64,000 bases of DNA from Patescibacteria group bacterium (GTDB lineage Bacteria; Patescibacteriota; Patescibacteriia; Patescibacteriales; UBA12465). Under the pieces are notes generated by a model. It was not told the DNA's origin. It did not search any database and was given only the letters and a program-made list of their open reading frames with translations. The stretch covers positions 5,183 through 69,182 of the forward strand of contig JBMOHE010000003.1 in assembly GCA_049318005.1 (NCBI GenBank), given 5' to 3'. How positions within the stretch are numbered: position 1 is the stretch's first letter; every line of letters begins with the position of its first letter. Of this stretch, positions 41,265 to 58,771 are shown piece by piece. The position numbers were made by a program, and so were the translations under genes.

Positions 41265-41269
41265 AATTT

Positions 41270-44200: not shown

Positions 44201-47161
44201 GCCTGTAATTGCGCAAATAGTTCTGGTAAATATTGTTCAATTTCTTCTTCAACTCCGCAGGGAATTTGTACGGATTGTGCCGGGATTGATACTCAAGAAA
44301 GTTGCGGCGATCATTCTTCAGTCTGCTGCTTTGACGCAAACAAGACCGCTACAACAACTGATGATGTATGTCGTGGACTTGGTTCCAATAAAGTTTTGAG
44401 CGTAAATAAAAATGACAAAGCAAATTACGGATATTGTGCTTTCTTTAATTGCCAAGTTGCTCCAGCCGATCCATTAATTTGCGCTTCAACTACTCCGGTA
44501 AAAGTCGGCTCTTATACAATAGAAGGGGACTGTGTATCATCTTGCCTTAAAGGTAGTGATGATATTTGTGCTGGTCTTAAGACTAAAGATGCTTGTTCTA
44601 ATGAGAGCGCCTGTTGTTTTGATTCTGTAACAAAAAAGTGTAAGTCTGGAGGAAAAATTACCGCAGGAGTAGATAATGGTTATTGCGCTTATTATAATTG
44701 TAATGATGGCGATCATCTTTCCTGTTCCTTAGTTGCTTCAACAACTGGTAAATTTATTGACCCTGTAAAATGTGATGATAGTTGTGCTAACCCACCAACT
44801 GGTGCTGGTTTGGGCTGCATGACGTCGACTGCTTCTACCACTTGTAATTTTAATTTATGTACAGCGTCTGGACTTAGTTGTTTACAGGACACAGGCAATT
44901 CGCCTATTTCAATTGGCGGCGAATATCCTAGTTGCGGTACATGTTGTTGTCAGCCTAAAACTGATACAACTGCTGACTCTTGCAAGAGTCCACTAACTCC
45001 AAATCTTTTTTGTCAGGCTGACACTGGATCATGCTCCGGCGCTAGTCGTGGATTATGCTGTGGTTGTACTAGTGATAGTGATTGCGGAGGAGAAGTAACA
45101 ATTGGTTGTGGCCTTGATTCCTGTTGCCAGGCTCGTCCAAAAGTTTCTTCTACTCAGCCTTCTATAGATGCCACTAATATTTGTCGAAACGCGGCCATAA
45201 AAATTACTTTCAATCAGAAAATGGATACTAATAGTTTCCTAAATAATTTTATTTTATTTGAAGAAAAAACATATGGTAATGGCATCTGTCCTGCCGGTAC
45301 GTTTTTAGCTGATGCCAATGCCGTCTCGGAAATTGCTAGAGCGCAAAATAAAAATATCTTTGTTCGCCTTTGGGAGAATATAAAAACAAAGACAGCTGCG
45401 ATATTTAATCATAAAAATAGCCAAGCCTTGGGGGCAGCGCCAAGTGCAGATAAATTATATTGTTCAGTCCCAGGCACAGTTAGTTCTGAGGATAGTGGTC
45501 CTCAAACTAGCTTAGAGTTTACTCCCGAAAAAGCTCTTTCTCCAGCGACAAACTATTATGTAGTTGTTAAAGGGGACGAAACCTTAACTAGCAAGGCTGG
45601 TGTATTAAGCGCGTCTCAAATTGGAATGAATGAAGCAGGTTTCAGAGAGGCAACGGTGATTACTAATGGAGTTAATAAAAATTATACAACTAAATTTACA
45701 AATGCTGTTCACTTTAATAATTTAAGCTATAAAAATGCTTATAGTTATAAATTTACAACTTTATCTGACCAGGGGGTTTCGGCTGGAATCTGTGCAATTG
45801 AATATGTAACGCTTGGTCCAAGTTCTTATCTTTTCAAAACAACAACAAATGCATTAAACGAAAAAGATGATAATAGCGACGCTACTTTTGACACGGCAAT
45901 TGATGGTGATAAGGCTTTTACGGCCGCCGCTTATAGTTCTAATAACCAATTGCTTTACCCGGTTGTTGGTTACGCTTGGGATTGGAAGTGGATAGTTATA
46001 GATCCTTCAGTCGTCGATATTTCTACTAAACCGCTTAATCTTCCTGAGACCAGAAAGTTAATTACTGCTAAAACGGGAGTAACTGATGGACAAACAATAA
46101 TAAGAGCTACGATTGATATGAGCAAATATAGATCTGGTTGCGGAAGTTCTTGTAATGCTTTTGCGGTGGGCGACGGTCAGACTGCTTCTAGTGATATCTA
46201 TGTTTTTCTTTGCAGTAATCCTTGGCCGGCTGTAAAAGTTGATGGTACTTGGAGTCCTTGGAATGATGCGGGGGCAAATTGTTCTATGGGAGTAGCCAAT
46301 TCTTGTGATAATTTTAATTATAAATTCTATTATTGCCGAGATGCTGGTGGTCCGGGAACGCTGGATGACTTGCCGGCTATTAATAATTCTCCAATTACAC
46401 GTAGCGGAAATTTATTATGTAGTTTAGATAATACTCCTTGTTCAATAATTAATTCCCCATGTGGAGCGGAAAATAAGGGGGTTTGTCTTTGGAACATTCT
46501 TAAAGAATCGTATTTTTTCAGAGAAGCAATTTTAAGTGGAGCAACGATCAGCTCGGCTTATAGTACGGGCAAGGGAGGGGAAGTAAGAATCGTCTGGCAG
46601 TCCCCAGCCGCGAACGTTGCTTCTTACAAAGTTTATTATTTGCAATCAGGTAACGGCACCATGCTCTCTAAAGAATTTAAAGCGCTTGGGACTGGTGGAG
46701 TTTGTTCTAGCGGCTCAAATATTAATACTTGCAACACGATCATATCCGGTTTAAATAACACCCAAGACTACATTTTCAAAGTAAGTGTAATTTCTGTTAA
46801 TAAAACCGAAAGTTCTTTTTCCAATGAGCTTACTGCTAAACCAACTGATGTCTATCCGCCAGCCATACCAGCCGGGTTAAAGTTTGAAGTAATTGGAACA
46901 CAAATTAAATTTTCTTGGACACCAGACGCAGATAAAACAGTTGTTTATCGTCTTTACCATGGCGTTGCTTCAGGAAAGTATGCGGAATCATTTGATTCGG
47001 CTCCAGGCTTATCTACTATGACTTTAGACTTAAATATTTTGAAATCTGGCAAGAACTACTTTGCTCTTTCAGCTATTGATAACGCGAAGAATGAAAGTGC
47101 GAAGTCAATCGAAAAAATTGCCGATATGGTTAATGGCTTGATTGTTAACCCAGCTAACTAA
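41270..47161 (+). CDS. Giant surface protein 2 (about 1963 aa): paralogous VirB2/TrbC-like module + very Cys-rich region + IPT/TIG-like, Ig-like and FN3-like domains
   Basis: The ATG at 41270 lies 6 nt after the upstream stop. The N-terminal module YAGFLWMTSNGEEDRITKAK is paralogous to that of the 38472 gene. IPT/TIG-like repeats (FITISGTNFG, YVTIKGSGFGG, LILWGEYFG). Two C-terminal FN3-like segments (VRIVWQSP...YKVYY, IKFSWTPD...YRLYHG). Confidence 0.8.
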   Translation: MFKKNSKKLIALSLLMSGLLFARFALAQDFGTEIVNNSLNGSLGTMTDPRELAGRIINIALGFLSVVAVGFILYAGFLWMTSNGEEDRITKAKQILRSGLIGLGIILSSWAIASFVILKLSGAIGSDGNSNGGGCLENTVSPCGCGGSMICSNGFYGACVGSNLDNCSNPPTSCDSSSTPGCQAASQICAAGDYCDNSCLCQTKAELGDSCDADLNNQTCDVDNNRCAEYLTCNPNTCLCDGPPAITGMSPIGGFCSNDASKSCAKDADCGEGNTCNDNTPNGAANNFITISGTNFGEYSATNSKIVFLGGDQSNSISGPGESEDPIGPPIGVPATAREAVSPSVINPSCISFWRNDQIVIAVPSGVQTGPIKVTNKEGLSDITNDNFGPSLPDFVANGISRPGLCDLDPVKGSLSSEVNYQGVNLYSGKAYFGNYKSNVSGLYSNFNVASGLSGTSTTPNIREGESGSFVETVVNGSLQKSNYLKFIKDREEGDGPYIMSFSPIDGAPGQYVTIKGSGFGGAKGENKVYFVTGNSKIEASYAFPAICANSVWGENQIIIKVPALIANDSYQLEVQIASTTLSTQRLNPNTFGVNDSLKLRPSLCKMDPVTGPIDTPLILWGEYFGKVGSNGLVQFNFRQNANGIIKNENEANVINTSVPKMALTGPVKVINNESGNELNFSVSECTKNEECNNQVCCPQNTYRKGRCVNDLSECVVDIPTSVYEWSFSTSFDASTTPKFSSCLGLSKYLGSCYQGAMCPNSAGACSSPSTSYDKVVGSCDVTCNNVPGCSSATCGYDKDLDKCVNKSTEKVCDLSSSISFEASDYSIKDAKPNTTEKKCNSEGKWEIKAQTSCPIGWTKGLNNACTQDDSSCNLCADKLTCEKVGTTNKCVSEKLCKDSQAICLDNLDNLASPDNCIIKVAPSCECCCRIGKDTEDCCAPLTCAGKCGSDVTANSNTYGSCSGCAAVGTTQDAHDSACNCANSSGKYCSISSSTPQGICTDCAGIDTQESCGDHSSVCCFDANKTATTTDDVCRGLGSNKVLSVNKNDKANYGYCAFFNCQVAPADPLICASTTPVKVGSYTIEGDCVSSCLKGSDDICAGLKTKDACSNESACCFDSVTKKCKSGGKITAGVDNGYCAYYNCNDGDHLSCSLVASTTGKFIDPVKCDDSCANPPTGAGLGCMTSTASTTCNFNLCTASGLSCLQDTGNSPISIGGEYPSCGTCCCQPKTDTTADSCKSPLTPNLFCQADTGSCSGASRGLCCGCTSDSDCGGEVTIGCGLDSCCQARPKVSSTQPSIDATNICRNAAIKITFNQKMDTNSFLNNFILFEEKTYGNGICPAGTFLADANAVSEIARAQNKNIFVRLWENIKTKTAAIFNHKNSQALGAAPSADKLYCSVPGTVSSEDSGPQTSLEFTPEKALSPATNYYVVVKGDETLTSKAGVLSASQIGMNEAGFREATVITNGVNKNYTTKFTNAVHFNNLSYKNAYSYKFTTLSDQGVSAGICAIEYVTLGPSSYLFKTTTNALNEKDDNSDATFDTAIDGDKAFTAAAYSSNNQLLYPVVGYAWDWKWIVIDPSVVDISTKPLNLPETRKLITAKTGVTDGQTIIRATIDMSKYRSGCGSSCNAFAVGDGQTASSDIYVFLCSNPWPAVKVDGTWSPWNDAGANCSMGVANSCDNFNYKFYYCRDAGGPGTLDDLPAINNSPITRSGNLLCSLDNTPCSIINSPCGAENKGVCLWNILKESYFFREAILSGATISSAYSTGKGGEVRIVWQSPAANVASYKVYYLQSGNGTMLSKEFKALGTGGVCSSGSNINTCNTIISGLNNTQDYIFKVSVISVNKTESSFSNELTAKPTDVYPPAIPAGLKFEVIGTQIKFSWTPDADKTVVYRLYHGVASGKYAESFDSAPGLSTMTLDLNILKSGKNYFALSAIDNAKNESAKSIEKIADMVNGLIVNPAN

Positions 47162-47202
47162 ATAAGTAATTGCTTAAAATAGTAAAAAATTAATTTTCAT
47201 AT

Positions 47203-50200
47203 ATGAAAAAAAACAAACTGATTATTTTTTGGCTTATTGTTATTTTGTTTGTGCCACTTATTATTTTAAATGTCACTCTTGCCCAAACAAATACGTCTGC
47301 CAATAATTCTAGCGGCTCTTATGTGAATAGTAATGATGCTATCGGTGTAAGAATTATTCCAAATAATGATCATCTCAGTATTTCTAGCTGGTATAAAAGT
47401 AAGGGTTTCACTGGCGCGCCTCAAGCTTTGATAGTGGACGGTTATGAGGCTATTCGTGATGGTCGAACGGTTTATGTAAATGCAGCCAACGTTAAGGGAA
47501 AACAAATTTTTACAAATATTTATTTGATTTCATATAACCAGGATCCTTCAATAAAAACTATTGATATTCTTGGCCAAATTGTTAAAAACTGGAAATTCAA
47601 TACTGACTTAGTTGAGAGAACTAACCCAGCTCCAAGCTGTGAAATATCTTCTGTATCTTGCACGACAAATGCGGATTGTGTTTCCAACCAAATATGTAGC
47701 ACTTCGGCTAATGATTCACCTTATTCCTTTTCTACTCCTAATTCATGCCAATTAAAAACAACTAAATATTGTCTAACTGACAGTGACTGTCCTACGAGCT
47801 TTTTCTGTAGTAGTGCTAAAGCAAAAATAATTAGAGACATGAAAAGAATTAGCAAGACTGAAGATTTAAAAGAAGCCTTATATAAGTATAAATCAGCTAA
47901 GGGATATTACCCTAAATTATCAGCTGGGAGTTATTTAAGTAATCAAACTATCTCTGCTTGGCCAAGTTGGTCCGAATCTTTTTTATCAGAATTATCTCTG
48001 CCTAGTATTACAGATCCAGTTAATCGTTTAGGCGCTTGTCCTGGTTATGACGCTAAGACTTGTTGGAATAAAGATACAAGAAGATTTTATAGTGCGTCTA
48101 ATGGAAGTTTGCTATTACCAGCTGGAAGCTTTGGTTTTGTTTACAAAACTGATTCTCAAGGATCAACCTTTGATCTTTGCTCTGTTATGGAGACCAGGGA
48201 ACCGACAACCGATTTGAACTTTCAATTTTCACCGGCTATGCCAGTTAATTCAAATTGTGTTTTAGCAACTGGAGTATTATCTAACGGAACATTATCTAAT
48301 ACCGCGCCTCATATAACTAATTCCTATTTAATGGGTGATACTGGGCAGGAATTTAAAGGCTCGCTTGAGGTTGTTGATAATCAGAATAATCCAATGACTT
48401 GGGATTTTAATACAAGTGGAGTTAATTGGATTCAAGCCGGCTGGAGCGCGGCACCTACCCTAAAGGAGACGGCTAATCCTAATCAGAAGAAAATAACCGC
48501 GGTTAAAGCTGGTAACCCTGGCGTTTATCCGGTTAAACTAACGGTTACCGATGGAGTTAAAATCAATGGCCTAGTTGGGACTTTAAGCACAACTACTAAT
48601 ATAGTAATTGTTAATCCAAAATCATTTATTGAGGCTGAAAATGCTGAATATTTACTAAATCCAAAAACGACTTTTAATTATAGTTTTTATTTTTCAGATG
48701 ATAATTTGGTCGATTATAAAACGGCGTTTAAAGTGACAGCAATTAGTAGTAGTAATGCCTATAATCCCTTGAGTGCTCCAAGCTCTGTTGAAGCGGCAGG
48801 GATAAATCGTTATAAAGTAAATTACTTGGTAAAAATACCAGTTACAAGTAAATTTTATTTCGATGCTAATTATATTTATCGTTTAACGGTTAGTGATAAA
48901 TTTAGAGCGGAAACAACCAAGGATATAAAAATTGCCATTAAAAGCGCGGCCCCTAATTTGAATTTTAATTGTTCAAGCACTGGACGCTTGGGCTCAACTT
49001 ATTCTTGTTTACTTGGCCCTACTGAGCAGGCAGACCAAAAATTAACTTATTCTACTAATGGTTTAAATTTTGGAGGTTTAGTAATTACGAGTAACGCAAC
49101 TTCGTCATATTTAAGTTCTCAAGAAACTAATCTGCCAACTAGTGGTTCTAGTAGCACTACTGTAAGTATTAAAGTTACTAATGAATATGGCGCATCAACA
49201 ACAAAAGCTTTCAATTTAAGTCTTAAGACTTATTGTGGAGACGGAATTTTACAAGATAAAGAACCTAATACTGAGGCACGGGGTGGTATTTATAATGACG
49301 GTTATGAAGATTGTGATGGAACGGCCGGTGTTGCAACTTCGGTTTCAACTAGTTCGAGCAAACAATATGCTTGTACAACTTTTAACAAAAATACGCCTAA
49401 TCCAATTGTAACTAATGGATACTGCGTATTTAAGTCACCGGTTAATGGTGGCGGTTTCTGTGGTGACGGATATTGTCAAACAAAATATGAAAATAAGGAT
49501 AATTGTGATCAGGATTGTTTATCTATTTGTGTTCCTACTTGTGAGGCAAAGGGAAGTGATTGTGGTGATAATGGCTGCGGAGGAATTTGCGGGGAATGCA
49601 GTATAGGCGATGAATGTTTTGGGGGCAAGTGCTGTATGAAGGAGGCAACCATTAAAACTTCATTTTATTCAGGTAATCAGGCAGATGAAATAATTGAGGT
49701 TTATTTCAATGGCAAAAAAGGAGCCTTGTCTTCTAGCGGGAGTTTTGATGGGGTCGTTTCTCATGGTAAGAATGTTTTAGCAATTAAGGCAGATGGTTTT
49801 GAGTCTTTTGACAGAGCTATAGTTGCTAAACTTGACCAGATTTCCCAAACTATTAATCCAGTCACAAAACAAGCAAAAAACGCTTGTCGAGCCGTGACGA
49901 CCGATAATTTAAAAAATTGGAAATGTCGAAATACTATTAATAACGGAAGCTATATTACTCAAACTTGGGCAGATTTAGATTATAATGATTCTTCTTGGAC
50001 AAACCCAATAAATACTGGGACCACGACCCAAGGAGCAAATATTTGGGCCCTAGATTTTCTTGATGATGAACAATCAAAAACATCGCAGCAATTAACAACG
50101 GCTTATTGTCGCTATACTTTTACTGGAGACCAGTTAGATAGTGATCATTCAACTCCTGATTGCGCTGGTAAAGAATGTGGGCCAAACGGGGTTGGCGGCT

Positions 50201-51687
50201 CTTGTCGCCCAAATAATTGCCCGGCGATCAATATTGATTCAGCAAATAATAAACCTAACCAGAATTTTAAATGTAATGAGACTTTAGGAAAGTGTGAATG
50301 TACAAAAGATACGGCCGAAACAAGAAATGCTAACAATAACAAAATTGCTGGCCAAGAAGGCTCAGCTTGTGGAACTTTCAGTGATACTTGTAACGGCATG
50401 ACTAAGGCTGGAAATATTTGCGGGGAAGGCTTGTATTGCAATCTTTCAACTGCCAACAATAAAGCAAAAAATTATTATATTGGTGAGCATAGCTATGTTG
50501 CTCTTGGTATACAGATTTATGATAATACTTCAATTACTGAAAATGGTGGGGATCTTTCTCACAAGAATGACTACCAATTCATTACAAAGGGTTGTAATTC
50601 TAATGCGCCAGACAATACCTGCCAGAAGAAATGCTGGGACACTAGTATTACTAAAGAGTTGACCGTTAGACAAGGTGATATTCCTGAGACAACTACTTGT
50701 GCTCTTGCAAGTAAGAAGGAGGACCCTGATTGTGATGCTTCGGGCTACGCTAATCCAGCTTGTCCTAGCGATTGCGATGCAACGCGTACTGAGCTTACAG
50801 GAGGAAAAGGAATAAAGAATGACAGTTGCGTTAGAGGTTATTCTTGTTGGTTTGGCATGGCTACTTGTTATGAGTGGAATCGAAGATTGGCTTGGAGTTG
50901 CAGTGAAACAGTAACTACAAGAGCCTTTTTCGGTCAAAGTTGTGGCGCTGGCAATAATGCTATTGATGCTAGTGGTAACTGTACTTGTAAACCGATTGAT
51001 TGTGCTGGAAAGTGTGGGTCTAATGGATGCGGAGGTGTTTGTAATAACGGTTTATGTGGCGATTCTCAAATATGTAGTAGCGGCACTTGTGTAAGCTGTA
51101 GTCATGATTGTAGCGGTAAAGCTTGTGGTCAAGAAAATAGTTGTGGTGAAAAATGTTCTAGCGGTTCTTGCCCAACTTTGTCAAATGGAGTAGCGTTGAC
51201 TTGTGAAAATAATACTTGCACGTGTAAGCCTAATTGCGCCGGTAAGACCTGTGGCGCAGATGATAGTTGTGGAGGTAAATGTTATAATGTAAATAATACT
51301 TGTGGCGCAAGCCAATATTGTACAACCTTTGGATGTAGAGATAGCTTTGGAGCGTGCGAAAGTCAGACAGACAATTTGGACTATCAAGAAGTTTGTTGGT
51401 CTAAGGATAGCGAAGGGACTTGCCCGGCAAATAATCCGTATAAGTGCCTCTGGTTTACCGGCGGAACCTGTAGCAGCCTTAAAACTACTGGCCCCGCGCT
51501 TCAGGCTTGTGCAAGCATTTTAACTCGATCAGCCTGTAAAGCAGCAACCCCGACAAATTTATGCAGATGGATGTCTGACGGTTTCTGTACTAGCTTAGAA
51601 ATGAGCAAGAAATTAAGTTGCAAGATTAATCGCACTTTTGGTGACTGTGAAGCAGCCGCTGATTGCAGCTGGAATACTCTTGAATAA
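47203..51687 (+). CDS. Giant Cys-rich secreted protein 3 (1494 aa) with an embedded pseudopilin-like globular domain
   Basis: N-terminal signal/anchor. Residues about 205-330 (nt about 47815-48192) resemble type IV pilin/GspG globular domains (RDMKRISKTEDLKEALYKYKSAKGYYP...LPSITDPVN...FVYKTD...FDLCSVME). Repeated CxGKxCGxxxxCGGxC units and CGDG...CD repeats are also present. Confidence 0.8.
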   Translation: MKKNKLIIFWLIVILFVPLIILNVTLAQTNTSANNSSGSYVNSNDAIGVRIIPNNDHLSISSWYKSKGFTGAPQALIVDGYEAIRDGRTVYVNAANVKGKQIFTNIYLISYNQDPSIKTIDILGQIVKNWKFNTDLVERTNPAPSCEISSVSCTTNADCVSNQICSTSANDSPYSFSTPNSCQLKTTKYCLTDSDCPTSFFCSSAKAKIIRDMKRISKTEDLKEALYKYKSAKGYYPKLSAGSYLSNQTISAWPSWSESFLSELSLPSITDPVNRLGACPGYDAKTCWNKDTRRFYSASNGSLLLPAGSFGFVYKTDSQGSTFDLCSVMETREPTTDLNFQFSPAMPVNSNCVLATGVLSNGTLSNTAPHITNSYLMGDTGQEFKGSLEVVDNQNNPMTWDFNTSGVNWIQAGWSAAPTLKETANPNQKKITAVKAGNPGVYPVKLTVTDGVKINGLVGTLSTTTNIVIVNPKSFIEAENAEYLLNPKTTFNYSFYFSDDNLVDYKTAFKVTAISSSNAYNPLSAPSSVEAAGINRYKVNYLVKIPVTSKFYFDANYIYRLTVSDKFRAETTKDIKIAIKSAAPNLNFNCSSTGRLGSTYSCLLGPTEQADQKLTYSTNGLNFGGLVITSNATSSYLSSQETNLPTSGSSSTTVSIKVTNEYGASTTKAFNLSLKTYCGDGILQDKEPNTEARGGIYNDGYEDCDGTAGVATSVSTSSSKQYACTTFNKNTPNPIVTNGYCVFKSPVNGGGFCGDGYCQTKYENKDNCDQDCLSICVPTCEAKGSDCGDNGCGGICGECSIGDECFGGKCCMKEATIKTSFYSGNQADEIIEVYFNGKKGALSSSGSFDGVVSHGKNVLAIKADGFESFDRAIVAKLDQISQTINPVTKQAKNACRAVTTDNLKNWKCRNTINNGSYITQTWADLDYNDSSWTNPINTGTTTQGANIWALDFLDDEQSKTSQQLTTAYCRYTFTGDQLDSDHSTPDCAGKECGPNGVGGSCRPNNCPAINIDSANNKPNQNFKCNETLGKCECTKDTAETRNANNNKIAGQEGSACGTFSDTCNGMTKAGNICGEGLYCNLSTANNKAKNYYIGEHSYVALGIQIYDNTSITENGGDLSHKNDYQFITKGCNSNAPDNTCQKKCWDTSITKELTVRQGDIPETTTCALASKKEDPDCDASGYANPACPSDCDATRTELTGGKGIKNDSCVRGYSCWFGMATCYEWNRRLAWSCSETVTTRAFFGQSCGAGNNAIDASGNCTCKPIDCAGKCGSNGCGGVCNNGLCGDSQICSSGTCVSCSHDCSGKACGQENSCGEKCSSGSCPTLSNGVALTCENNTCTCKPNCAGKTCGADDSCGGKCYNVNNTCGASQYCTTFGCRDSFGACESQTDNLDYQEVCWSKDSEGTCPANNPYKCLWFTGGTCSSLKTTGPALQACASILTRSACKAATPTNLCRWMSDGFCTSLEMSKKLSCKINRTFGDCEAAADCSWNTLE

Positions 51688-52906: not shown

Positions 52907-53107
52907 ATGTTAAAAAGTAATAACTCTAAACCAAATTCGCGACCAAGTATGTTTGGCGGCAGCGTTAAAAGGCCGACTCTTTCCCTGAACCTACATACTA
53001 TGCCGCAAACAATTACTAGCCACTGGACAAGGTGGCTGGTTTTAGGTTTTGTTATTTTATCTATATTTGCGGTAGCCTCATTCTTGCTTTATTCTTTTAC
53101 GCAATAA
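52907..53107 (+). CDS. Small C-terminally anchored membrane protein (66 aa)
   Basis: ATG at 52907 with a C-terminal TM helix (WLVLGFVILSIFAVASFLLY). Weak call. Confidence 0.35.
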   Translation: MLKSNNSKPNSRPSMFGGSVKRPTLSLNLHTMPQTITSHWTRWLVLGFVILSIFAVASFLLYSFTQ

Positions 53108-53110
53108 TCT

Positions 53111-54157
53111 ATGTTTGGCGCTAAAAAGAAAATAAAAAAAAATGATGAAAGTGCGGAGATAACTCTAAAAGTTAATTCTGATTTGCTTGTGCGTAATATG
53201 CCCAGCTTAGCAAAGCTCACTAATACTTCGCTATCTTCGAACCTAAAACCAGCTCAAGCAAGCCATAATGTTCTATCCTCGATTGAAAGGCCGACTGGCA
53301 ATAAGCACCAGACGGTTGGAATATTGATTATTCTAGGCGGCTGCATTTTAATTGGAGCCTTGGTTTATTTGAGCTATATTTTTATTATTAAACCGCAAGC
53401 CGCTAGCAATGTTAAAAAAGTGGTAGCTCCTGAACCAGCTAAAAATAGCGTTATAAATATTAAACCGGCTACTAGCAGCGAAGAAATAATTACACCGGTA
53501 GCAAGTATCGTTGCGACTATTACGCCAACAGCTCTGGGTTTAGAAGATATCGCTTCGACGACTACTATGGCCGAAGAGTCGACTGGACGAAATAGTATTG
53601 ATTTACCACCTCTTCTCGATACTGATAGTGATGGCTTAATTGATGATGAGGAAACAGTTTTAGGCGCAAACCCTAATGCCGAAGATTCAAACAACAATAA
53701 TTATAAGGATGCAGCTGAGCTAGCTAATAACTATGATCCAGCCGGAAGCGGTAAAATTGAGACTAATAAATATTTAGCCAAATATGCCGACAATGCCAAT
53801 ACTTATGATTTTTTATATCCAAAAGATTGGGAATTTAGTATTTTAAATAATAATTCAATTATTATTTTTAATTCACCAGACGACTCAATTATCCAGGTTT
53901 CTGTCCAAGAAAATACTACTAAACAAGCTATTCTAGCTTGGTATAACGAGTCTTTCCCTGACAGCGCACTTACTAGTGACAGGTTAAAATCGACGGGTAC
54001 TTGGGATGGAGTTATGAGCGACGACGGTTTAAATTTTTATTTAACTGATAAAAAAAAGGCTAATATTTACGTAATTTCATATATTCCAGCCGTGATGAAT
54101 CGCCTTGCTTATCCAAATATATTTAAGCTAATGATAAACTCATTAGTAATAAAATAA
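53111..54157 (+). CDS. Single-pass membrane protein with one DxDxDG repeat and an unknown C-terminal domain
   Basis: TM helix (VGILIILGGCILIGALVYLSYIFII), then DTDSDGLIDDEE, then a globular C-terminal region of about 130 aa. Confidence 0.65.
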   Translation: MFGAKKKIKKNDESAEITLKVNSDLLVRNMPSLAKLTNTSLSSNLKPAQASHNVLSSIERPTGNKHQTVGILIILGGCILIGALVYLSYIFIIKPQAASNVKKVVAPEPAKNSVINIKPATSSEEIITPVASIVATITPTALGLEDIASTTTMAEESTGRNSIDLPPLLDTDSDGLIDDEETVLGANPNAEDSNNNNYKDAAELANNYDPAGSGKIETNKYLAKYADNANTYDFLYPKDWEFSILNNNSIIIFNSPDDSIIQVSVQENTTKQAILAWYNESFPDSALTSDRLKSTGTWDGVMSDDGLNFYLTDKKKANIYVISYIPAVMNRLAYPNIFKLMINSLVIK

Positions 54158-54158
54158 A

Positions 54159-54187
54159 TAGACAATCAGCCTAAATTTTGCTATAAA
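54159..54187 (+). promoter_or_regulatory. Putative promoter of the ncRNA/RT operon (extended -10)
   Basis: TAGACA at 54159-54164, a 17-nt spacer, then TGc-TATAAA at 54179-54187. The predicted TSS at about 54192-54196 coincides with the first base of the ncRNA closing helix. Confidence 0.45.
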
Positions 54188-54194
54188 TAAGATA

Positions 54195-54388
54195 TTAGCT
54201 AGCTTATAAAGTCGTCGTAGCCACCTAAATTTATTTAGGGTACCAAAAATTATAGTATTAGTCGTCTTATTCGTTGGTACCGTGGCGCCTAGTAGTATAA
54301 TTAGCACCCATCACTGGGTTCAATACTATTTTCGATTTGTGATGCGCCGTTTGGTGGCATCGCGCTACGGCGACTAGCTAGTTTTTTT
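54195..54388 (+). ncRNA. Structured non-coding RNA immediately upstream of the RT (retron msr-msd-like or DRT-type ncRNA candidate)
   Basis: A 247-nt gap with no ORF. The long-range closing helix is 54195-54221 paired with 54364-54381: 11 bp gtcgtcgtagc/gctacggcgac plus 6-7 bp tagctag/ctagcta, with a 5' bulge. Internal hairpins are 54224-54239 (cctaaa/tttagg), 54239-54281 (ggtaccaa/ttggtacc) and an extended imperfect hairpin at 54284-54348. It ends in T7 (54382-54388), 16 nt before the RT ATG. Confidence 0.55.
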
Positions 54389-54404
54389 ATAGTTAATATT
54401 TAAT

Positions 54405-55616
54405 ATGAAAAATCAGATTATTGATCTAGCGAATATTAAACAGGCTTACTTAGACCTTGCAAATCAATTTGAAGAAAAATTAAAGACGACCCGTTATACC
54501 GGGTTTGATTCTGTTAAGTTAACAGATGTTGATTATAAGGCTACCGGTATTTTAGATGAGGTTAGGTCTGATTTAGTAAATTCTGCACCGCTTACTCCAG
54601 TTAGATTAGTTAATATTTTAAAAAAAGACGGGAAAAAAAGGGAAGTTTTCATTTTGACTGTTAAGGATAGAATTAGAGCTAGGGCAATTTATCGAATTTT
54701 AGAACCACTGTTTGAGTTAAATTATAGTCCTTATCTTTTTTCCTATCGCTCAAGTCACCCCAGCGCCTATGCGGCTCGGAGCGTTGCTAGACGCTACCAT
54801 CGTTATTTTGGCCAGGATTATGTCATGACAATTGATATAAAAGATTATTTTAATTATCTTGACCATGATGTAATTAGAAAACAGCTCACTGCGCTTGGCA
54901 TAAAAAACGATGTTCTAGAAATGATTGAGCCATTTTTTAAGATAAAACTCTGGCAGAATGGCAAGCTAGTTACTTGGGATAAAGGAATCCCTCAAGGTAC
55001 TCCTTTCAACTCTTTATTTTCAAACTACTATTTAACAGATCTTGATAACGAGCTAGGCTCAAAGGTCTCTCTCTATAGGCGAGTCGGTGACGATTTAATT
55101 GCCTTTGATAAAAATAAGGAAAAATTAGAAGAAGTTTTTAATCTAGCTAAAAAAAGAATTACCGATCTCGGGCTAGTAATTCAGGATAAAAAAACTCATT
55201 TTGCTAAGAATACTGAGGAATTTTCCTATTTAGGTTATCTTTTTAAAGATAATTCTCTCCGTTTACGTTCTGGGCTAGTTCGAGAATTAAAAATTGCTTG
55301 GCATAAAGAATTAAAATATAATCATTCTAGTTTAGAAAAAAAAGTTTCAAAATTAAAAAGTTTGTGTTTTTTCTCAGAAAATAATTTTCAAACTCAGTTT
55401 TTAGAAATTTTAAAACAGCATCAACAGCTAGATGACGATGAGGGGGTTAAGCAGTTGTCTAATCAATTCTATAATTATGTAGCGGCTTATCTATTTGGTA
55501 AAGCGACGCCGAGAAATAGGCGTTTAGCCAAAGAAAAACTTAAAGAAATAAAAATACCTTCTTTTTATGAGTATTACTTGGCCTACAGACGGGGCAAAAA
55601 AAAGTCCGCGGCTTAA
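54405..55616 (+). CDS. Reverse transcriptase (403 aa), non-intron, non-DGR type
   Basis: RT motifs in order: 1/2 KKDGKKREVFILTVKDRIRARAIY; 3 SYRSSHPSAYAA; A YVMTIDIKDYFNYLDH; B GIPQGTPFNSLFSNYYL; C YRRVGDDLIAF (nt 55083-55094 encode VGDD); D/E KTHF...FSYLGYLF. An alpha-helical thumb-like tail follows. Confidence 0.9.
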   Translation: MKNQIIDLANIKQAYLDLANQFEEKLKTTRYTGFDSVKLTDVDYKATGILDEVRSDLVNSAPLTPVRLVNILKKDGKKREVFILTVKDRIRARAIYRILEPLFELNYSPYLFSYRSSHPSAYAARSVARRYHRYFGQDYVMTIDIKDYFNYLDHDVIRKQLTALGIKNDVLEMIEPFFKIKLWQNGKLVTWDKGIPQGTPFNSLFSNYYLTDLDNELGSKVSLYRRVGDDLIAFDKNKEKLEEVFNLAKKRITDLGLVIQDKKTHFAKNTEEFSYLGYLFKDNSLRLRSGLVRELKIAWHKELKYNHSSLEKKVSKLKSLCFFSENNFQTQFLEILKQHQQLDDDEGVKQLSNQFYNYVAAYLFGKATPRNRRLAKEKLKEIKIPSFYEYYLAYRRGKKKSAA

Positions 55617-57324
55617 ACTTTTTCAAGCACGACGAAGTATTAAATTTGAAAATGGGCGCCTAACTATTACCCGGTGGCAGTATAGGCGTTTAAAAAAATT
55701 TTACATTCAGCATAAAACTAAATTTTTTTGGTTATTTTTATGTTTAATAGTTCAGTCTCTGCTGGAAATTTCTTTGCCAGTTTTTAGCTCGGTAATTGTA
55801 AAAGAAGTAAATATTTTTATTTACAATAAGCAAATTGTCTCATATCTTTCCGTTTTGTTTTTAGGTGTGGCTGTTTATTTAGTTAGTGCCTTTCTATATT
55901 TATTAGTCGAAAAAACTTTAATTATTCAGTTAATTAATGAGCTTAGAGAACATTGGTTCAAATTATTTTTGTATCGCGCACCCAATCGAACTAATAGTCG
56001 CGATAAAGCAAAATTATTAGCGAAGGTTACTTATCATTTTTCTTTGCTCCAGGTAAGTTTAGGTGCCTCTATAGGTGGCGCTCTACGCTGGACTATAAAC
56101 TTTTTTGTTCTTTTAGCCTTTGCTTTAACTAGTAGCTGGTCTTTAGTTTTTTATGTTTTGGCCAGCTCTATTTTTAGCATAATTTTGTTAGTAATTGGTT
56201 ATTATATTGGTTTGTATTATTTAAGTCGTGAAGCCTCGCTTTCTAGCGCTATTATTAGCCATATTTCTGAACAAGCTGACCAAGTTTCATTACTACAAAA
56301 TCAAGCTAGAGAGAAGGAATCAATAAACCAAATGCGTCGCCTTGTAGCTCTCGACTCCGTTCTTAAAATACGAAGAACTCTTTGGATGAATTATGGCAAT
56401 AAACTTATATATTCTTTAATTGTTATTTCGACAGTCTTAGTCATAGTTGTGCCTAGCATTTTTCCTGATATTAATTTCGCGTCACTTCTGTCAGGAATAG
56501 ATATATTTTTTGGCTTGATAGTCGCCTTGCTAATTCGACAGCTATATTTAGGACTGAGAATCGGCTTGAATGCAGTGCCAACGCAAATCGGCCTTTCTTT
56601 GTCATTGCCGCAGCCCGAAAGTCCGAGGGTAAGACTGGACAAGGTTGGAGAATTTAAGGAAATTGTTTTTAAATCAAAAAAGTTTAAATTGACCCCTGGC
56701 GGTAGTTATTTTAAAAACGTTGAAATACTATTTAAGTCTGGTTGCGCGTATTTATTTTTTGGCGAGCTTGGATCAGGAAAAAATCAATTAGCAAAAATTT
56801 TTAGTGGTCGCTCAATAGAAGAGGGGAAGCCCTGGATAATCAGGCTTAATGGAGAAAGATATCTATATAAAGAATGGCGTAGAGTTTCTCGTCGAGCTTT
56901 TTTTGTAAGTGGCAAGATTGCTGGCGGAGCATCGCTCGCTGAAATTATTTCCGGAGAAGCAAAGACGAAAATTAAATCCGAACAAATTGAAAAAATTTGT
57001 CTTCTTATAGAAGAAATACCGGCCTTAAACTTTTTAAATAATATTCCAAAATTAATTGCGGCCAATATTGATCAAACATCTTTTACGGAAGCGGAAAAAG
57101 TTTTAGTGGAACTAGCTTATTGTTTAATTAGGGAGCCAAATTTAATCGTTATTGATGACTCAGTTTTTTATTTACCTGACCCAAGAATTAAAGAGATGTT
57201 AGAAATATTAGCGCCTCGTTTAAAAAAATCAATTATAATTTTATTTTCAAGACATAAATTAGACTATTTAGACTTTACTAATATTTATGAAATCAACAAA
57301 AAGTTTTTTAAAGAAAATTCCTAG
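55567..57324 (+). CDS. ABC-exporter-like membrane protein with a degenerate nucleotide-binding domain (585 aa)
   Basis: A basic N-terminus and about 6 TM helices arranged like type-I ABC exporter TMDs. The C-terminal NBD has Walker A GELGSGKN (nt 56761-56784) and Walker B LIVIDD (57142-57159). FTEAE stands in place of the LSGGQ signature. The H-loop-like segment is SRHKL. It overlaps the RT by 50 nt. Confidence 0.75.
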   Translation: MSITWPTDGAKKSPRLKLFQARRSIKFENGRLTITRWQYRRLKKFYIQHKTKFFWLFLCLIVQSLLEISLPVFSSVIVKEVNIFIYNKQIVSYLSVLFLGVAVYLVSAFLYLLVEKTLIIQLINELREHWFKLFLYRAPNRTNSRDKAKLLAKVTYHFSLLQVSLGASIGGALRWTINFFVLLAFALTSSWSLVFYVLASSIFSIILLVIGYYIGLYYLSREASLSSAIISHISEQADQVSLLQNQAREKESINQMRRLVALDSVLKIRRTLWMNYGNKLIYSLIVISTVLVIVVPSIFPDINFASLLSGIDIFFGLIVALLIRQLYLGLRIGLNAVPTQIGLSLSLPQPESPRVRLDKVGEFKEIVFKSKKFKLTPGGSYFKNVEILFKSGCAYLFFGELGSGKNQLAKIFSGRSIEEGKPWIIRLNGERYLYKEWRRVSRRAFFVSGKIAGGASLAEIISGEAKTKIKSEQIEKICLLIEEIPALNFLNNIPKLIAANIDQTSFTEAEKVLVELAYCLIREPNLIVIDDSVFYLPDPRIKEMLEILAPRLKKSIIILFSRHKLDYLDFTNIYEINKKFFKENS

Positions 57325-58771
57325 AATTCCAAAACGGATAGTTTTAATTTTTTTTGGCGTTATTATTCTTGTCATGTTGATTGCAGCATCAGTTTTTTGG
57401 TTAATTGATAGTAGATTATTTAACAATAAGTACGCGCCAAAGTATTCAGAAGAAGCTCCTCGCAACCTTGAAGCGGAAATTTTATTTAATAATAAAGTTG
57501 GTGAGAGCGAATTTTCAGCCGCCTTTGTTGGTCTGATCAGGAGTGCAAGTTCAAGTATTGATTTAGCAATGTATTCTCTTGATTCGACTGAAATTAGAGA
57601 TGAACTTTATAAGGCTGCTAATCGTGGGGTGATTGTCAGAGCAGTCGTTTCTTCAAATAAAAGAACCCAATACAATAATTTATTTAAAGACAAGCCAGCT
57701 AATGTCTTCTTAAGTGAGGAAAATTTGGGCCCCAAACAGAACGGCTTTATGCATAATAAATATATTATTAGTGATGCAAATAGTAGTAAAAAGACAATGA
57801 TTACAGGGTCTTTTAACTCAACTCGTCTTCAGGAGTTATATGATCCGAGCTTCATATTTAAGACTTATGATGAGACTATGATTAAATACTACGGCCAAGA
57901 ATTTGAACGTCTATTTTCCGGGAAATCTGGTTTGGCTAAATTTAATGATAAAACTTATAGTGCTTGGCAGGCGGATTTGAATTATAAAAATGGAAAAATG
58001 GAAATTTGGTGGAGCCCTGGTTCTGGCGAGGTAACTATAAAAAAAAGAATGCTCGAGCTCATTTATCAGGCCGAGGAATCTATTGATATCATGATTTGGC
58101 AGACGACGGATAAAGAAATCTCTCAAGCTCTAATTGATAAAGCGGCTAGCGGTGTTAAGGTAAGAATTATTGCTGATGACTCTAACGCCTGGCTCGATGT
58201 TTCCGCGCTTCCCCAGATAGTCGCCGCCAGTTTAAATTCTAATAACTTAATTATTGTTGATGACGCGGCCAGAACAGTTGATTTTTTAAATGAGATATTT
58301 AAAGACTCTCTAGTCGATAAAAATAACTTTAATTCTTTTCTGCATCACCATGCTTTAATAATTGATAAGAAAATCTTAATTTCTGGGAGTGGAAACTGGA
58401 GTTATAGTGCTAATTTCAGTAATGATGAAAACACATTAATTACTACAGTGCCCGATTTAATTAAATTGTATCAAGACTCATTTGATTTTAATTTTAATAA
58501 GTTACATAAACAAAGTTTAGAATTCAAATTAAGTCAGGAAGAGATAATCCTTCCCAATTTGAATTCTTATCTTGGTTATAATCTAGTTTTATTAGGAGAA
58601 GATTCAAAATCAGCGCCTATGACCCAGATTTGTTCAAGTGAAATAATCAGACTTAATGAATTTAAAATAAAAATTCCTGAAAATTGTAAAAATAAAGCTT
58701 TAAATATTTTTATTATTAATTCAACTGGTGAAGTTGAGGCTAATCGCTTGATTGGAAAAATTAATATTTAG
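57287..58771 (+). CDS. Membrane-anchored PLD-superfamily protein (two HKD-type lobes; nuclease or phospholipase)
   Basis: Basic N-terminus plus a TM helix (IVLIFFGVIILVMLIAASVFWLI). HKD1 is HNKYIISD...GSFN (nt 57752-57775). HKD2 is HHHALIID...GSGN (nt 58343-58366), with His in place of Lys. It overlaps the ABC-like gene by 38 nt. Confidence 0.8.
   Translation: MKSTKSFLKKIPRIPKRIVLIFFGVIILVMLIAASVFWLIDSRLFNNKYAPKYSEEAPRNLEAEILFNNKVGESEFSAAFVGLIRSASSSIDLAMYSLDSTEIRDELYKAANRGVIVRAVVSSNKRTQYNNLFKDKPANVFLSEENLGPKQNGFMHNKYIISDANSSKKTMITGSFNSTRLQELYDPSFIFKTYDETMIKYYGQEFERLFSGKSGLAKFNDKTYSAWQADLNYKNGKMEIWWSPGSGEVTIKKRMLELIYQAEESIDIMIWQTTDKEISQALIDKAASGVKVRIIADDSNAWLDVSALPQIVAASLNSNNLIIVDDAARTVDFLNEIFKDSLVDKNNFNSFLHHHALIIDKKILISGSGNWSYSANFSNDENTLITTVPDLIKLYQDSFDFNFNKLHKQSLEFKLSQEEIILPNLNSYLGYNLVLLGEDSKSAPMTQICSSEIIRLNEFKIKIPENCKNKALNIFIINSTGEVEANRLIGKINI

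What the first reader, a model, noticed from the sequence alone, without database searches (positions are those of the whole stretch)
54195..54388. Retron-like fold of the upstream RNA: long-range closing helix ending in UAGC, short 5' hairpins, one long 3' hairpin, and a duplicated AGUCGUC box
Seen in the sequence: the 5' end (54195-54221) and 3' end (54364-54381) pair over about 17-18 bp. The inner part is 11 bp (GUCGUCGUAGC with GCUACGGCGAC, one G-U). The outer part is UAGCUAG with CUAGCUA, in two possible registers, with a 5-9-nt bulge. Inside the helix are hairpin 54224-54239 (6 bp, UUUA loop) and hairpin 54239-54281 (8-bp GGUACCAA/UUGGUACC stem). A long imperfect hairpin spans 54284-54348, built from GGCGC/GCGCC, AGUAGUAU/AUACUAUU and ACCCA/UGGGU with apex UCAC. 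Alternative pairings CAUCAC/GUGAUG and GAUGC/GCAUC compete with it. The heptamer AGUCGUC occurs twice (54210-54216 and 54260-54266), and both copies can pair with the same 3' segment GGCGACU (54369-54375). That suggests a conformational switch or a template-jump homology. Established knowledge: retron RNAs have flanking a1/a2 inverted repeats, a branching G in a conserved (U)AGC context at the inner end of that helix, short msr hairpins and a long msd hairpin, followed by the RT gene. Here UAGC (54218-54221) lies at the inner end of the closing helix and the order of elements matches. Caveat: the closing helix is followed by U7, so it could also act as a terminator/attenuator before the RT. 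The RNA could instead be an unrelated housekeeping sRNA such as 6S.
Basis: partly seen in the sequence, partly recalled or inferred. Interest (0 to 1): 0.8.

Follow-up and report, generated by a model that had tools for sequence, protein, structure and literature searches.

The report
Pseudoknotted RNA partner of reverse transcriptase

Summary
Window 54197-54388 encodes a structured RNA (MFE -70 kcal/mol, z = -5.2). It has its own promoter-like site and a U7 tract, and lies directly upstream of a 403-aa reverse transcriptase (RT). Comparison with 40+ related loci gives this architecture:
- a long closing helix P1, a short hairpin P2 and a 19-bp helix P3
- a pseudoknot, GGUACC pairing with GGUACC in the P3 loop; all 204 cells are paired in 34 sequences, and every pair shows changes on both sides
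- a hairpin P4 at a site that is variable or swappable in relatives
- a single-stranded UCAAU motif
- a hairpin P5 with loop CCGUUUGG

The "long 3' hairpin", the AGUCGUC duplication and the UAGC "branch site" are not conserved.

The RT is group-II-intron-like (E = 1e-38 to solved intron RTs, against 1e-7 for retron Ec86). There is no intron ribozyme and no Rfam match.

RNA, RT, a degenerate MsbA-like ABC protein and a membrane-anchored Zucchini/Nuc-like PLD nuclease form one conserved cassette: the ABC gene is present in 42 of 42 informative loci and the PLD gene in 40 of 40.

Best reading: a dedicated scaffold or template RNA of a new RT system that resembles retron and DRT systems. Its function is inferred, not shown.

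The parts
54159..54187 (+). Promoter-like site of the RNA: TAGACA (54159-54164), 17-nt spacer, TGcTATAAA (54179-54187)
   Evidence: Read directly from the sequence. A TATAA(A/T) box sits 8-11 nt before the closing helix in L041, L042 and both RNA copies of L043. The consensus scan did not list it, because the hexamer ends in A. Inferred, not mapped.
54197..54221 (+). P1 5' strand: outer 54197-54204, bulge UAUAA 54205-54209, inner 54210-54221
   Evidence: 11 inner pairs; most show compensatory changes; a long-range closing helix in about 31 of 42 loci beats every shuffle.
54224..54239 (+). P2 hairpin (CCUAAA / UUUAGG, loop UUUA)
   Evidence: helix 1: 78% of cells paired despite length variation; CG/UA/GC/AU exchanges.
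54239..54246 (+). Pseudoknot 5' strand (G)GUACCA(A)
   Evidence: helix 2: columns 53-58 with 96-101, 100% of 204 cells paired, all 6 pairs changed on both sides.
54248..54302 (+). P3/P3a helix (54248-54266 with 54284-54302; G-G and U-C mismatches). Its loop 54267-54283 carries the pseudoknot 3' strand.
   Evidence: inverted repeat I5. helices 3 and 4: 86% and 79% of cells paired; 14 of 15 pairs changed on both sides.
54274..54281 (+). Pseudoknot 3' strand (U)UGGUAC(C) inside the P3 loop. In relatives it is the loop of a small hairpin, P3b.
   Evidence: helices 2 and 5. Sequences read.
54306..54319 (+). P4 hairpin ACCCA-UCAC-UGGGU. It corresponds to the last hairpin (loop ..AUCA..) of a region that is variable or expanded in relatives.
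   Evidence: One search shows the central segment exchanged between otherwise identical tandem copies in L043.
54320..54337 (+). Conserved single-stranded motif UCAAUACUAUUUUCGAUU. The main clade has ACUCAUUGUCA followed by an A/U-rich run.
   Evidence: It is unpaired. A role as template or RT-contact site is inference.
54339..54363 (+). P5 hairpin: GUGAUGC-G-CC GUUU GG-UG-GCAUCGC, with conserved loop CCGUUUGG
   Evidence: a stem flanks a CC(N3-6)GG loop in about 30 loci, with more than 15 different stem sequences; 70.5% of cells paired against 54% in shuffles and 36-46% when the partner is slid.
54364..54383 (+). P1 3' strand (inner 54364-54375, outer 54376-54383), continuous with P5
54382..54388 (+). 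U7 tract straight after and overlapping the end of P1; a probable transcript end
   Evidence: Read from the sequence. T runs or separate terminator hairpins lie between the RNA and the RT start in many loci. Not mapped.
54405..55616 (+). [quoted passage not shown] Motif C reads YRRVGDD and the catalytic Asp residues are conserved.
55567..57324 (+). Degenerate MsbA-like ABC half-transporter, 585 aa. Its ORF overlaps the end of the RT gene.
   Evidence: present in 42 of 42 informative loci. Walker B reads 'iDn' and no LSGGQ signature; only 69 clusters at E < 1e-30 among 1.84 billion representatives..
57287..58771 (+). PLD-family protein with two HKD-type motifs and an N-terminal membrane anchor, 494 aa (Zucchini/NucT/Nuc-like)
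   Evidence: present in 40 of 40 informative loci..

Best explanation

SHOWN
- The RNA folds into a conserved scaffold: a long closing helix P1, hairpin P2, helix P3 locked by a loop-to-5'-strand pseudoknot, hairpin P4, a conserved single-stranded motif, and hairpin P5 stacked on P1.
- It is genetically tied to the RT gene.
- The RT keeps its catalytic residues.
- The three genes overlap like an operon.

INFERRED
- The RNA is made as its own short, abundant transcript, from a promoter 10 nt upstream to the U tract after P1. Where P1 abuts the start codon, it may instead be cut out of the operon leader.
- The RT binds the P1/P2/pseudoknot/P5 scaffold.
- The RT uses an internal segment as template for a small cDNA. 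The candidates are the single-stranded UCAAU/ACUCAUUGUCA motif after hairpin P4, and/or the exchangeable P4 region.
- The resulting RNP or cDNA controls the two membrane proteins. The most likely setting is an accessory, defence-type system of the retron/DRT kind.

Priming is probably not from a 2'-OH of a branch G.
For: FOLD
- z = -5.18.
- 22 of 47 nested pairs have compensatory changes among 5 close relatives.
- Over 34 sequences, 84.8% of cells are paired, against 65% for shuffles and 33-47% for slid partners.
- The pseudoknot is 100% paired, with all 6 pairs changed on both sides.
- P5 is supported, and P1 in about 31 of 42 loci.

LINKAGE
- RNA-RT-ABC-PLD is found in every locus long enough to judge, in unrelated genomic neighbourhoods.
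- The RNA stays with the RT when the ABC and PLD genes are divergent (L037, L038).

RT
- It resembles intron RTs from RT0 to the thumb, and D144, D229 and D230 are invariant.

OWN TRANSCRIPTION UNIT
- A -10 box is conserved, and terminators or U tracts follow the RNA.

CASSETTE BEHAVIOUR
- The tandem RNA copies in L043 are 100% and about 97% identical in their flanks, but unrelated across the central ~50 nt.

ANALOGY
- DRT2, DRT9 and DRT10 pair a class 2 RT with an upstream ncRNA template. In DRT10 the template lies just downstream of a stem-loop, and the effector is a membrane protein (PMC12632851; bioRxiv 10.64898/2026.04.29.721553).
- Many relatives carry UCAUUGUCA(U/A)U directly after hairpin P4.

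ACCESSORY CHARACTER
- The ABC-like family is tiny, some genomes hold several copies, the taxonomic spread is patchy, and only 1 of 2.9 million viral contigs carries the RT.
Against: - There are no expression, binding or cDNA data of any kind.
- No template can be pinned down. The A-B-A'-like repeat is short, is not universal, and is absent in clear form from the window (UUC...UUC only).
- Motif C is VGDD rather than YxDD, so the polymerase properties may be unusual.
- The neighbourhoods examined are housekeeping genes, not defence islands. PADLOC has no model for the ABC-like protein.
- Synteny with close relatives (L041, L042) shows vertical inheritance.
- By the positive-inside rule the PLD domain may face outward. 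That fits poorly with a simple cytoplasmic toxin model.
- About a quarter of loci gave no clear P1 with the ungapped search. One locus (L022) shows no recognisable RNA upstream.
Confidence: 0.55

Rival explanations
1. A true retron. The RNA would be an msr-msd transcript whose a1/a2 helix positions a branching G. The RT would prime from its 2'-OH and copy the 3' half into msDNA, which holds the two effectors in check.
For: - The layout resembles a retron: a closing inverted repeat, short 5' hairpins, a variable region in the 3' half, then the RT and accessory genes.
- The variable or swappable P4 region recalls msd variability.
- Some sources label the homologues 'retron-type RT'.
Against: - The RT groups with group II intron RTs: 1e-38 against 1e-7 for Ec86. 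The retron St85 model gives 54 bits against a cut-off of 235, and PADLOC retron models score E = 1e-12 to 1e-17 against 7e-43 for the generic intron-type RT model.
- Motif 7 reads YLGY, not VTG.
- There is no conserved G at the inner end of P1. The main clade has AAAAC, and G54220 is an A in L042, L043 and L005.
- The nucleotides next to the 3' strand of P1, where retron reverse transcription would start, are the conserved P5 hairpin, not a variable msd.
- The effectors are not known retron effectors.
Confidence: 0.06
2. A purely cis-acting leader or attenuator. In this reading the structure is the 5' UTR of the RT-ABC-PLD operon. P1 plus the U tract terminates transcription, or hides the RT start site, and RT binding or a ligand tunes expression. 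This would resemble group II intron proteins binding domain IVa over their own start codon. The RNA would not be a template.
For: - U7 directly follows P1 in the window. Terminator hairpins follow the RNA in many loci.
- In about 10 loci the 3' strand of P1 ends 0-7 nt before the RT ATG, so it could mask the ribosome entry site.
- The RT is intron-like, and such RTs are known to autoregulate by binding RNA at their own start. That last point is established knowledge and was not tested here.
Against: - A P1 helix mostly 20-30 nt long (about 14-40), allowing a few mismatches, is too stable for a switch.
- The RNA has its own promoter-like box.
- It is duplicated in tandem, with each copy carrying its own promoter and a different central cassette. 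That makes little sense for a leader.
- A 190-330-nt pseudoknotted scaffold with several conserved single-stranded motifs is far more than an attenuator needs.
- The regulatory role and the template role are not mutually exclusive.
Confidence: 0.15
3. A decayed remnant of a group II intron RNA. The surviving piece would be the RT-binding part, retained only as an assembly or stability partner of a domesticated RT that works on other substrates, for example in DNA repair as G2L4 RTs do.
For: - The RT is intron-like from RT0 onward.
- G2L RTs are known to be domesticated for cellular functions (PMC12337344, listed; PMC8632793).
- P5 has an internal loop on its 3' side and lies just before the ORF.
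Against: - No Rfam intron model (domain V/VI or D1-D4 families) matches, even at E <= 10.
- There is no AGC triad or GNRA loop in P5.
- The RT ORF lies outside the RNA rather than in a domain IV loop.
- The RNA is flanked by coding genes, with only about 240 nt of space.
- Known G2L4 enzymes have no partner RNA.
- This reading does not explain the strict linkage to the ABC-like and PLD-like genes.
Confidence: 0.1
4. An unrelated housekeeping small RNA (6S, SRP, RNase P, tmRNA) or a chance fold in an AT-rich spacer.
For: None beyond its position in an intergenic region.
Against: - There is no Rfam hit.
- The fold has z = -5.2.
- Covariation is strong.
- The RNA co-occurs strictly with the RT in different genomic contexts.
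Confidence: 0.01

Closest known systems
DRT10 / UG17 (formerly G2L3): ncRNA + RT + SLATT membrane effector
   Same: - A tripartite logic of a structured ncRNA next to the RT plus a membrane effector.
[quoted passage not shown]
- The UG17 model is among the better defence-RT matches to this RT (106 bits).
- Many relatives of the window RNA carry a UCAUUGUCAUU repeat-like motif after a hairpin.
   Different: - The score is far below family level, and the RT is closer to true intron RTs (158 bits for the NCBIfam intron RT model; 1e-38 to solved intron RTs).
- There is no SLATT gene. The effectors are an ABC-like protein and a PLD-like protein.
- The RNA fold is different: a P1-closed scaffold with a pseudoknot.
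- The hosts are Patescibacteria, not Proteobacteria or Bacillota.
- cDNA synthesis is untested.
Retrons (msr-msd RNA + retron RT + effector)
   Same: - The RNA lies upstream of the RT and is closed by inverted repeats.
- Short hairpins lie 5' and a variable region lies 3'.
- Accessory effector genes sit in the same cassette.
   Different: - The RT is not of the retron clade.
- There is no conserved branching G.
- There is no conserved long msd hairpin.
- The RNA has a pseudoknot, and a conserved hairpin sits next to the 3' strand of the closing helix.
- The effectors are not among the known retron types.
DRT2 / DRT9 (class 2 UG RTs with an upstream ncRNA template)
   Same: - An RT without extra domains, paired with a conserved, highly structured ncRNA encoded 5' of the gene. 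In DRT2 and DRT9 that ncRNA is far more abundant than the RT mRNA (PMC9226505).
   Different: - Different RT lineage: DRT9 1e-22 and DRT2 1e-13, against 1e-38 for intron RTs.
- Different RNA.
- Two dedicated membrane proteins are present here.
Group II intron RTs and domesticated G2L RTs (G2L4, RT-Cas1)
   Same: - The RT domain, including RT0, aligns with GsI-IIC and other intron RTs over residues 2-325.
- There is no ribozyme, as in the G2L lineages (PMC8632793).
   Different: - No intron RNA domains.
- Motif C reads RVGDD rather than RYADD.
- The RT has a dedicated, non-intron partner RNA and a fixed pair of ABC-like and PLD-like genes. The G2L descriptions I could read mention neither.

Membership tests
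Retron | RT belongs to the retron RT clade (retron-specific profile; VTG in motif 7) | tested here: not met
   NCBIfam retron St85 model: 54 bits against a cut-off of 235. PADLOC retron models: E = 1e-12 to 1e-17, against 7e-43 for the intron-type RT model. Ec86: 1e-7, against 1e-38 for intron RTs. Motif 7 reads YLGY.
Retron | Flanking a1/a2 inverted repeats that close the ncRNA | tested here: met
   P1 is 20 bp in the window. In relatives the equivalent helix is about 14-40 nt, mostly 20-30, allowing a few mismatches.
Retron | Conserved branching G (AGC context) at the inner end of a1 | tested here: not met
   G54220 is replaced by A in L042, L043 and L005. The junction reads CUAA|AAAAC in the main clade.
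Retron | msDNA: a 2'-5' branched RNA-DNA copied from a long msd hairpin | not testable with these tools
   This needs biochemistry. The proposed long hairpin 54284-54348 is not supported by covariation.
Group II intron | Intron-type RT (RT0-7 and thumb/X) | tested here: met
   Profile against 7uim and 6ar1: E = 1e-38, residues 2-325. TIGR04416 gives 158 bits, below its whole-protein cut-off of 300.
Group II intron | Ribozyme domains I-VI around the ORF, which lies in domain IV | tested here: not met
   No Rfam intron family matches even at E <= 10 in 53000-56000. Only about 240 nt lie upstream, and an overlapping gene lies downstream.
G2L (group-II-like, ribozyme-less) RT lineage | Closest to intron RTs but without intron RNA | tested here: met
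   Placement in a named G2L clade (G2L4, G2L5 or others) was not tested, because no reference tree was available.
UG17 / DRT10 | RT scores as UG17 and is coupled to a SLATT gene | tested here: not met
   RT_UG17: 106 bits, a partial match and weaker than the intron models. The neighbours are ABC-like and PLD-like proteins, not SLATT.
Diversity-generating retroelement | Template/variable repeat pair and an Avd-type accessory gene | tested here: not met
   No direct repeat longer than 28 nt in 53900-55700. No DGR-type hits among the top protein-family matches.
Known Rfam RNA families (6S, SRP, RNase P, tmRNA, retron msr, riboswitches) | Covariance-model match | tested here: not met
   nothing in the region at E <= 10.

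The most novel reading that the evidence does not exclude
The RNA is a programmable scaffold. Its exchangeable central cassette (P4) would be copied by the intron-derived reverse transcriptase into cassette-specific single-stranded DNA. That DNA would be handed to the MsbA-like membrane protein and to the PLD nuclease, which probably faces outward. The whole would be a retroelement-derived device for DNA export or surface immunity in ultra-small episymbiotic bacteria, unlike any characterised retron or DRT.
Probability: 0.1. Interest if true: 0.9.

Novelty: new variant of a known kind. Interest (0 to 1): 0.75.

Why it matters
- Systems that pair a reverse transcriptase (RT) with a non-coding RNA (retrons, DRT2, DRT9, DRT10) have each revealed an unexpected way of making DNA, and have become genome-engineering tools. 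All characterised examples use retron or UG/Abi RTs.
- This would be a group-II-intron-derived RT with its own non-intron partner RNA, a very well supported pseudoknotted fold, and a fixed pair of unusual membrane partners. The lineage, Patescibacteria, is one whose biology and defences are largely unknown.
- It offers a compact cassette of about 4.6 kb that can be tested in a surrogate host.
- It adds an RNA family that is missing from Rfam.
- It is a possible intermediate in the story of how intron RTs were domesticated.

Tried and rejected
- Single-protein scan of genome contigs: it found no relatives. The alignment-based scan was needed.
- Full-length covariance model: R1, built from 5 close relatives, recovered only 12 loci. 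I therefore used plain MAFFT alignments of the 5' and 3' modules. These are not fitted to any structure.
- RNA.duplexfold for locating P1: it first timed out, then gave useless all-over pairings. I replaced it with an ungapped helix search with shuffles.
- P5 counting: it is diluted by a one-column register shift between clades. The window clade has a 2-nt 3' internal loop where the others have 3 nt.
- Housekeeping RNA: rejected.
- Intron ribozyme: rejected.
- DGR: rejected.
- AGUCGUC switch or template jump: rejected as not conserved.
- UAGC branch site: rejected.
- tRNA-linked mobile island as a general feature: only L043 shows a duplicated tRNA 3' end, and no third copy was found.
- Phage origin: 1 hit in 2.9 million viral contigs.
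- Literature: eight searches and four papers found no description of an RT-ABC-PLD cassette or of this RNA. Subscription-only papers were not searchable.
- A-B-A' template repeats: seen in many relatives but not universal, and I did not test them statistically. I keep this as a lead only.
Full report
WHAT IS THERE

The 247-nt spacer between the ORF ending at 54157 and the reverse transcriptase (RT) ORF starting at 54405 folds far better than chance. The minimum free energy is -70 kcal/mol, against -47.9 +/- 4.3 for 200 dinucleotide-preserving shuffles (z = -5.18). Rfam 15 has no match in 53000-56000 even at E <= 10. Its only gathering-level hit in the whole window is one tRNA.

THE GENES AROUND IT

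- The downstream ORF (54405-55616, 403 aa) is an RVT_1 reverse transcriptase.
- Its family profile matches solved group II intron RTs (7uim, 6ar1) at E = 1e-38, from the N-terminal RT0 motif to about residue 325. By comparison, DRT9 scores 1e-22, DRT2 1e-13 and retron Ec86 1e-7 (the single-sequence search gives the same ranking).
- The NCBIfam intron RT model gives 158 bits, below its 300-bit cut-off. The retron St85 model gives 54 bits against a cut-off of 235. The best PADLOC hits are a generic intron-type RT (7e-43), then UG26 and UG17 at about 1e-31.
- The family has about 400-aa members, mostly from Patescibacteria. Motif C reads YRRVGDD, D144, D229 and D230 are invariant, and motif 7 reads (F/Y)LGY.
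- No intron ribozyme is present. The RT is therefore a ribozyme-less, group-II-like (G2L-type) enzyme.
- Two further ORFs overlap like an operon:
  - a 585-aa protein with weak ABC_membrane and ABC_tran matches; its nearest solved relative is MsbA at 1e-7;
  - a 494-aa PLD-family protein with an N-terminal hydrophobic anchor; its nearest solved relatives are Zucchini/MitoPLD, NucT and Nuc.
- Across 43 related loci, the ABC-like gene is found in 42 of 42 and the PLD-like gene in 40 of 40 loci whose sequence extends far enough. In two of these loci (L037, L038) the pair lies divergently upstream.
- In the family alignment the ABC-like protein has a weakly conserved Walker A, a Walker B reading 'iDn' without the catalytic Glu, and no LSGGQ signature. 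The PLD-like protein keeps HxK(x)4D and GSxN in its first half. Its second half has HxH(x)4D...NDE.
- The ABC-like family is small and isolated: 69 clusters at E < 1e-30 among 1.84 billion representatives. Ordinary ABC transporters appear only at E > 1e-9.

THE RNA FOLD, FROM COMPARISON

Upstream regions of the related loci share an architecture, though often not the sequence.

1. P1, the closing helix.
   - In the window, 54210-54221 pairs with 54364-54375, and 54197-54204 pairs with 54376-54383. A 5-nt bulge lies on the 5' strand.
   - Compensatory changes in L041 and L042 fix this register.
   - An ungapped helix search between the last 120 nt before the RT start and the region 120-450 nt upstream finds a helix of about 14-40 nt (mostly 20-30), allowing a few mismatches, that spans 190-360 nt. 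It scores 37-65 in about 31 of 42 loci. Shuffles average about 23 and mostly peak at 25-34. The sequences are unrelated between clades.
2. P2, a short hairpin (54224-54239).
3. A pseudoknot.
   - The bases just after P2 (54240-54245, extendable to 54239-54246) pair with 54275-54280 (extendable to 54274-54281). That 3' strand lies in the terminal loop of helix P3/P3a (54248-54266 with 54284-54302).
   - In most relatives this loop is itself a small hairpin (P3b). Its 7-nt loop is almost entirely used by the pseudoknot, and it is preceded by an A-rich bulge.
4. P4, a hairpin with an ..AUCA.. loop (54306-54319). In relatives it is preceded by 0-100 nt of variable hairpins.
5. A conserved single-stranded motif: UCAAUAC... 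in the window clade and ACUCAUUGUCA in the main clade.
6. P5 (54339-54363), with loop CCGUUUGG and an asymmetric internal loop. It abuts the 3' strand of P1.
7. A U tract. In other loci there is instead a separate terminator hairpin before the RT start.

STATISTICS

- Among five close relatives, 22 of 47 nested pairs show changes on both sides.
- I aligned the 5' module of 34 sequences with plain MAFFT, so the alignment is not fitted to any structure. On it, 84.8% of cells form standard pairs, against 65.0 +/- 0.9% in column shuffles (0 of 500 reach the observed value) and 33-47% when partners are slid by 1-3 columns.
- In the same test, the six pseudoknot pairs are paired in all 204 cells. 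Each has 5-14 sequences changed on both sides (GC/UA/AU/CG exchanges). P3, P3a and P3b are paired in 86%, 79% and 71% of cells.
- The outer stem of P5 gives 70.5%, against 54% for shuffles and 36-46% for slid partners. This is despite a register shift between clades. A pattern search finds a stem around a CC(N3-6)GG loop in about 30 loci, with many different stem sequences.

- Right: the closing helix, the first hairpin, the GGUACC/GGUACC pairing, the GAUGC/GCAUC pairing and the ACCCA/UGGGU apex.
- Wrong: the 65-nt '3' hairpin'. Its arms belong to P3, to the single-stranded motif and to P5.
- Wrong: the duplicated AGUCGUC. It exists in the window, but the second copy is the 5' strand of P3a and reads AACCGCC or AACCGC in the nearest relatives. 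A switch or template-jump role is therefore not supported.
- Wrong: the UAGC branch site. It is not conserved, and the main clade has no G near the junction.
- Together with the RT's affiliation, this removes the defining retron features while keeping the general resemblance.

HINTS ABOUT FUNCTION

- The RNA looks like its own transcription unit. In the window, TAGACA-N17-TGcTATAAA ends 10 nt before P1. A TATAA(A/T) box occupies the same place in L041, L042 and both copies in L043.
- In about 10 loci the 3' strand of P1 ends 0-7 nt before the RT start codon. P1 may therefore also mask translation initiation, or serve as a processing site.
- Three loci carry two RNA genes in tandem (L043, L009, L039).
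  - In L043 the copies are 100% identical over the first 136 nt and about 97% identical over the last 75 nt. The central ~50 nt, at the P4 site, are unrelated. The scaffold therefore carries an exchangeable cassette.
  - The L039 copies differ by compensatory changes in P1, P3a, P4 and P5.
- Many relatives have UCAUUGUCA(U/A)U straight after hairpin P4. This recalls the A-B-A' template downstream of a stem-loop in DRT10 (PMC12632851). The pattern is short and not universal, so it is a lead only.
- Genomic contexts differ between lineages and look like housekeeping regions, with no integrases and no known defence genes.
- Some MAGs carry two or three cassettes. Hosts include a few non-Patescibacteria: Longimicrobiales, Flavobacteriaceae and Omnitrophota.
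- Only one of 2.9 million viral contigs carries the RT.
- Taken together this points to a rare, horizontally mobile, accessory cellular system.

INTERPRETATION

The fold, its conservation and the four-part linkage are shown. The rest is inferred by analogy with retrons and with the class 2 DRT systems (PMC9226505; PMC12632851; bioRxiv 10.64898/2026.04.29.721553).
- The RT binds the scaffold.
- The RT copies an internal segment into a small DNA: the single-stranded motif after P4 and/or the P4 cassette.
- The RNP or its product governs the MsbA-like and PLD-like membrane proteins.

I rate this reading at about 0.55. The rivals are:
- a purely cis-regulatory leader (0.15);
- an intron-RNA remnant that serves only as an assembly partner (0.10);
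- a true retron (0.06);
- a housekeeping RNA or a chance fold (0.01).

NOVELTY

Rfam, PADLOC, NCBIfam and Pfam have no model for the RNA, for the cassette or for the ABC-like protein. Eight full-text searches and four papers on UG/Abi, G2L, myRT and DRT10 gave no description of it. The G2L lineage is described there as largely uncharacterised, with other gene associations. Papers behind subscription walls could not be searched, so prior description cannot be excluded.

I class this as a new variant of a known kind (RT plus ncRNA plus effector systems). The RT lineage, the RNA fold and the effectors each differ from the characterised examples.

Noticed in passing
L043:3485-3731 and L043:3772-4001 (also L009:2538-2725 with 2768-2965, and L039:2390-2650 with 2687-2996): The partner RNA gene is duplicated in tandem. 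In L043 the two copies have identical scaffolds, but their central ~50-nt segments are unrelated, and each copy has its own -10 box.
   Followed up: partly
L043:3123-3196 and L043:3366-3410: A tRNA-Trp gene lies just upstream of the cassette. Its 3' end plus about 20 following bases are repeated about 190 nt downstream, which looks like an att-type integration scar. No third copy lies within the locus, and 11 other loci have no tRNA nearby.
   Followed up: partly
window 57287-58771 and homologues: The second HKD motif of the PLD-like protein conservatively reads HxH(x)4D instead of HxK(x)4D. The N-terminus (7 Lys/Arg, then a hydrophobic helix) suggests that the catalytic part faces outward.
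   Followed up: partly
window 55567-57324 and homologues: The ABC-like protein keeps a conserved transmembrane half, but its Walker B reads D-N/D without the catalytic Glu, and it has no LSGGQ signature. It probably binds but does not hydrolyse ATP. The family has only about 70-90 clusters in 1.84 billion representatives.
   Followed up: partly
L010, L014, L019-L021, L023, L026, L027, L031, L039 (3' modules listed): The motif UCA(U/A)UGUCA(U/A)(U/A/G) follows directly after a hairpin whose loop contains AUCA. These are two UCA-type units six bases apart, reminiscent of the A-B-A' template of DRT10. I did not test this statistically.
   Followed up: no
L010, L012, L015, L016, L021, L023, L024, L033, L039: The 3' strand of the closing helix ends 0-7 nt before the RT start codon. 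The helix could therefore also mask translation initiation, or mark an RNase III-type processing site.
   Followed up: no
Contigs CAYOAT010000007.1 (L008, L032), CAYOAT010000004.1 (L028), JBAXPN010000007.1 and JBAXPN010000014.1 (L015, L021): Single small-genome MAGs carry two or three complete cassettes with different RNAs.
   Followed up: no
L022:945-1275: This locus has the RT, ABC-like and PLD-like genes, but no recognisable partner RNA in the AT-rich 330 nt upstream.
   Followed up: no
window 41255-51687: Two very large ORFs (1968 and 1494 aa) lie upstream. The second is Cys-rich and begins with a signal-like N-terminus. It is syntenic in the closest relatives, L041 and L042.
   Followed up: no
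window 14939-15096: A 63-nt tandem repeat (2.5 copies, 92% matches) has an internal 12-nt A-rich periodicity.
   Followed up: no
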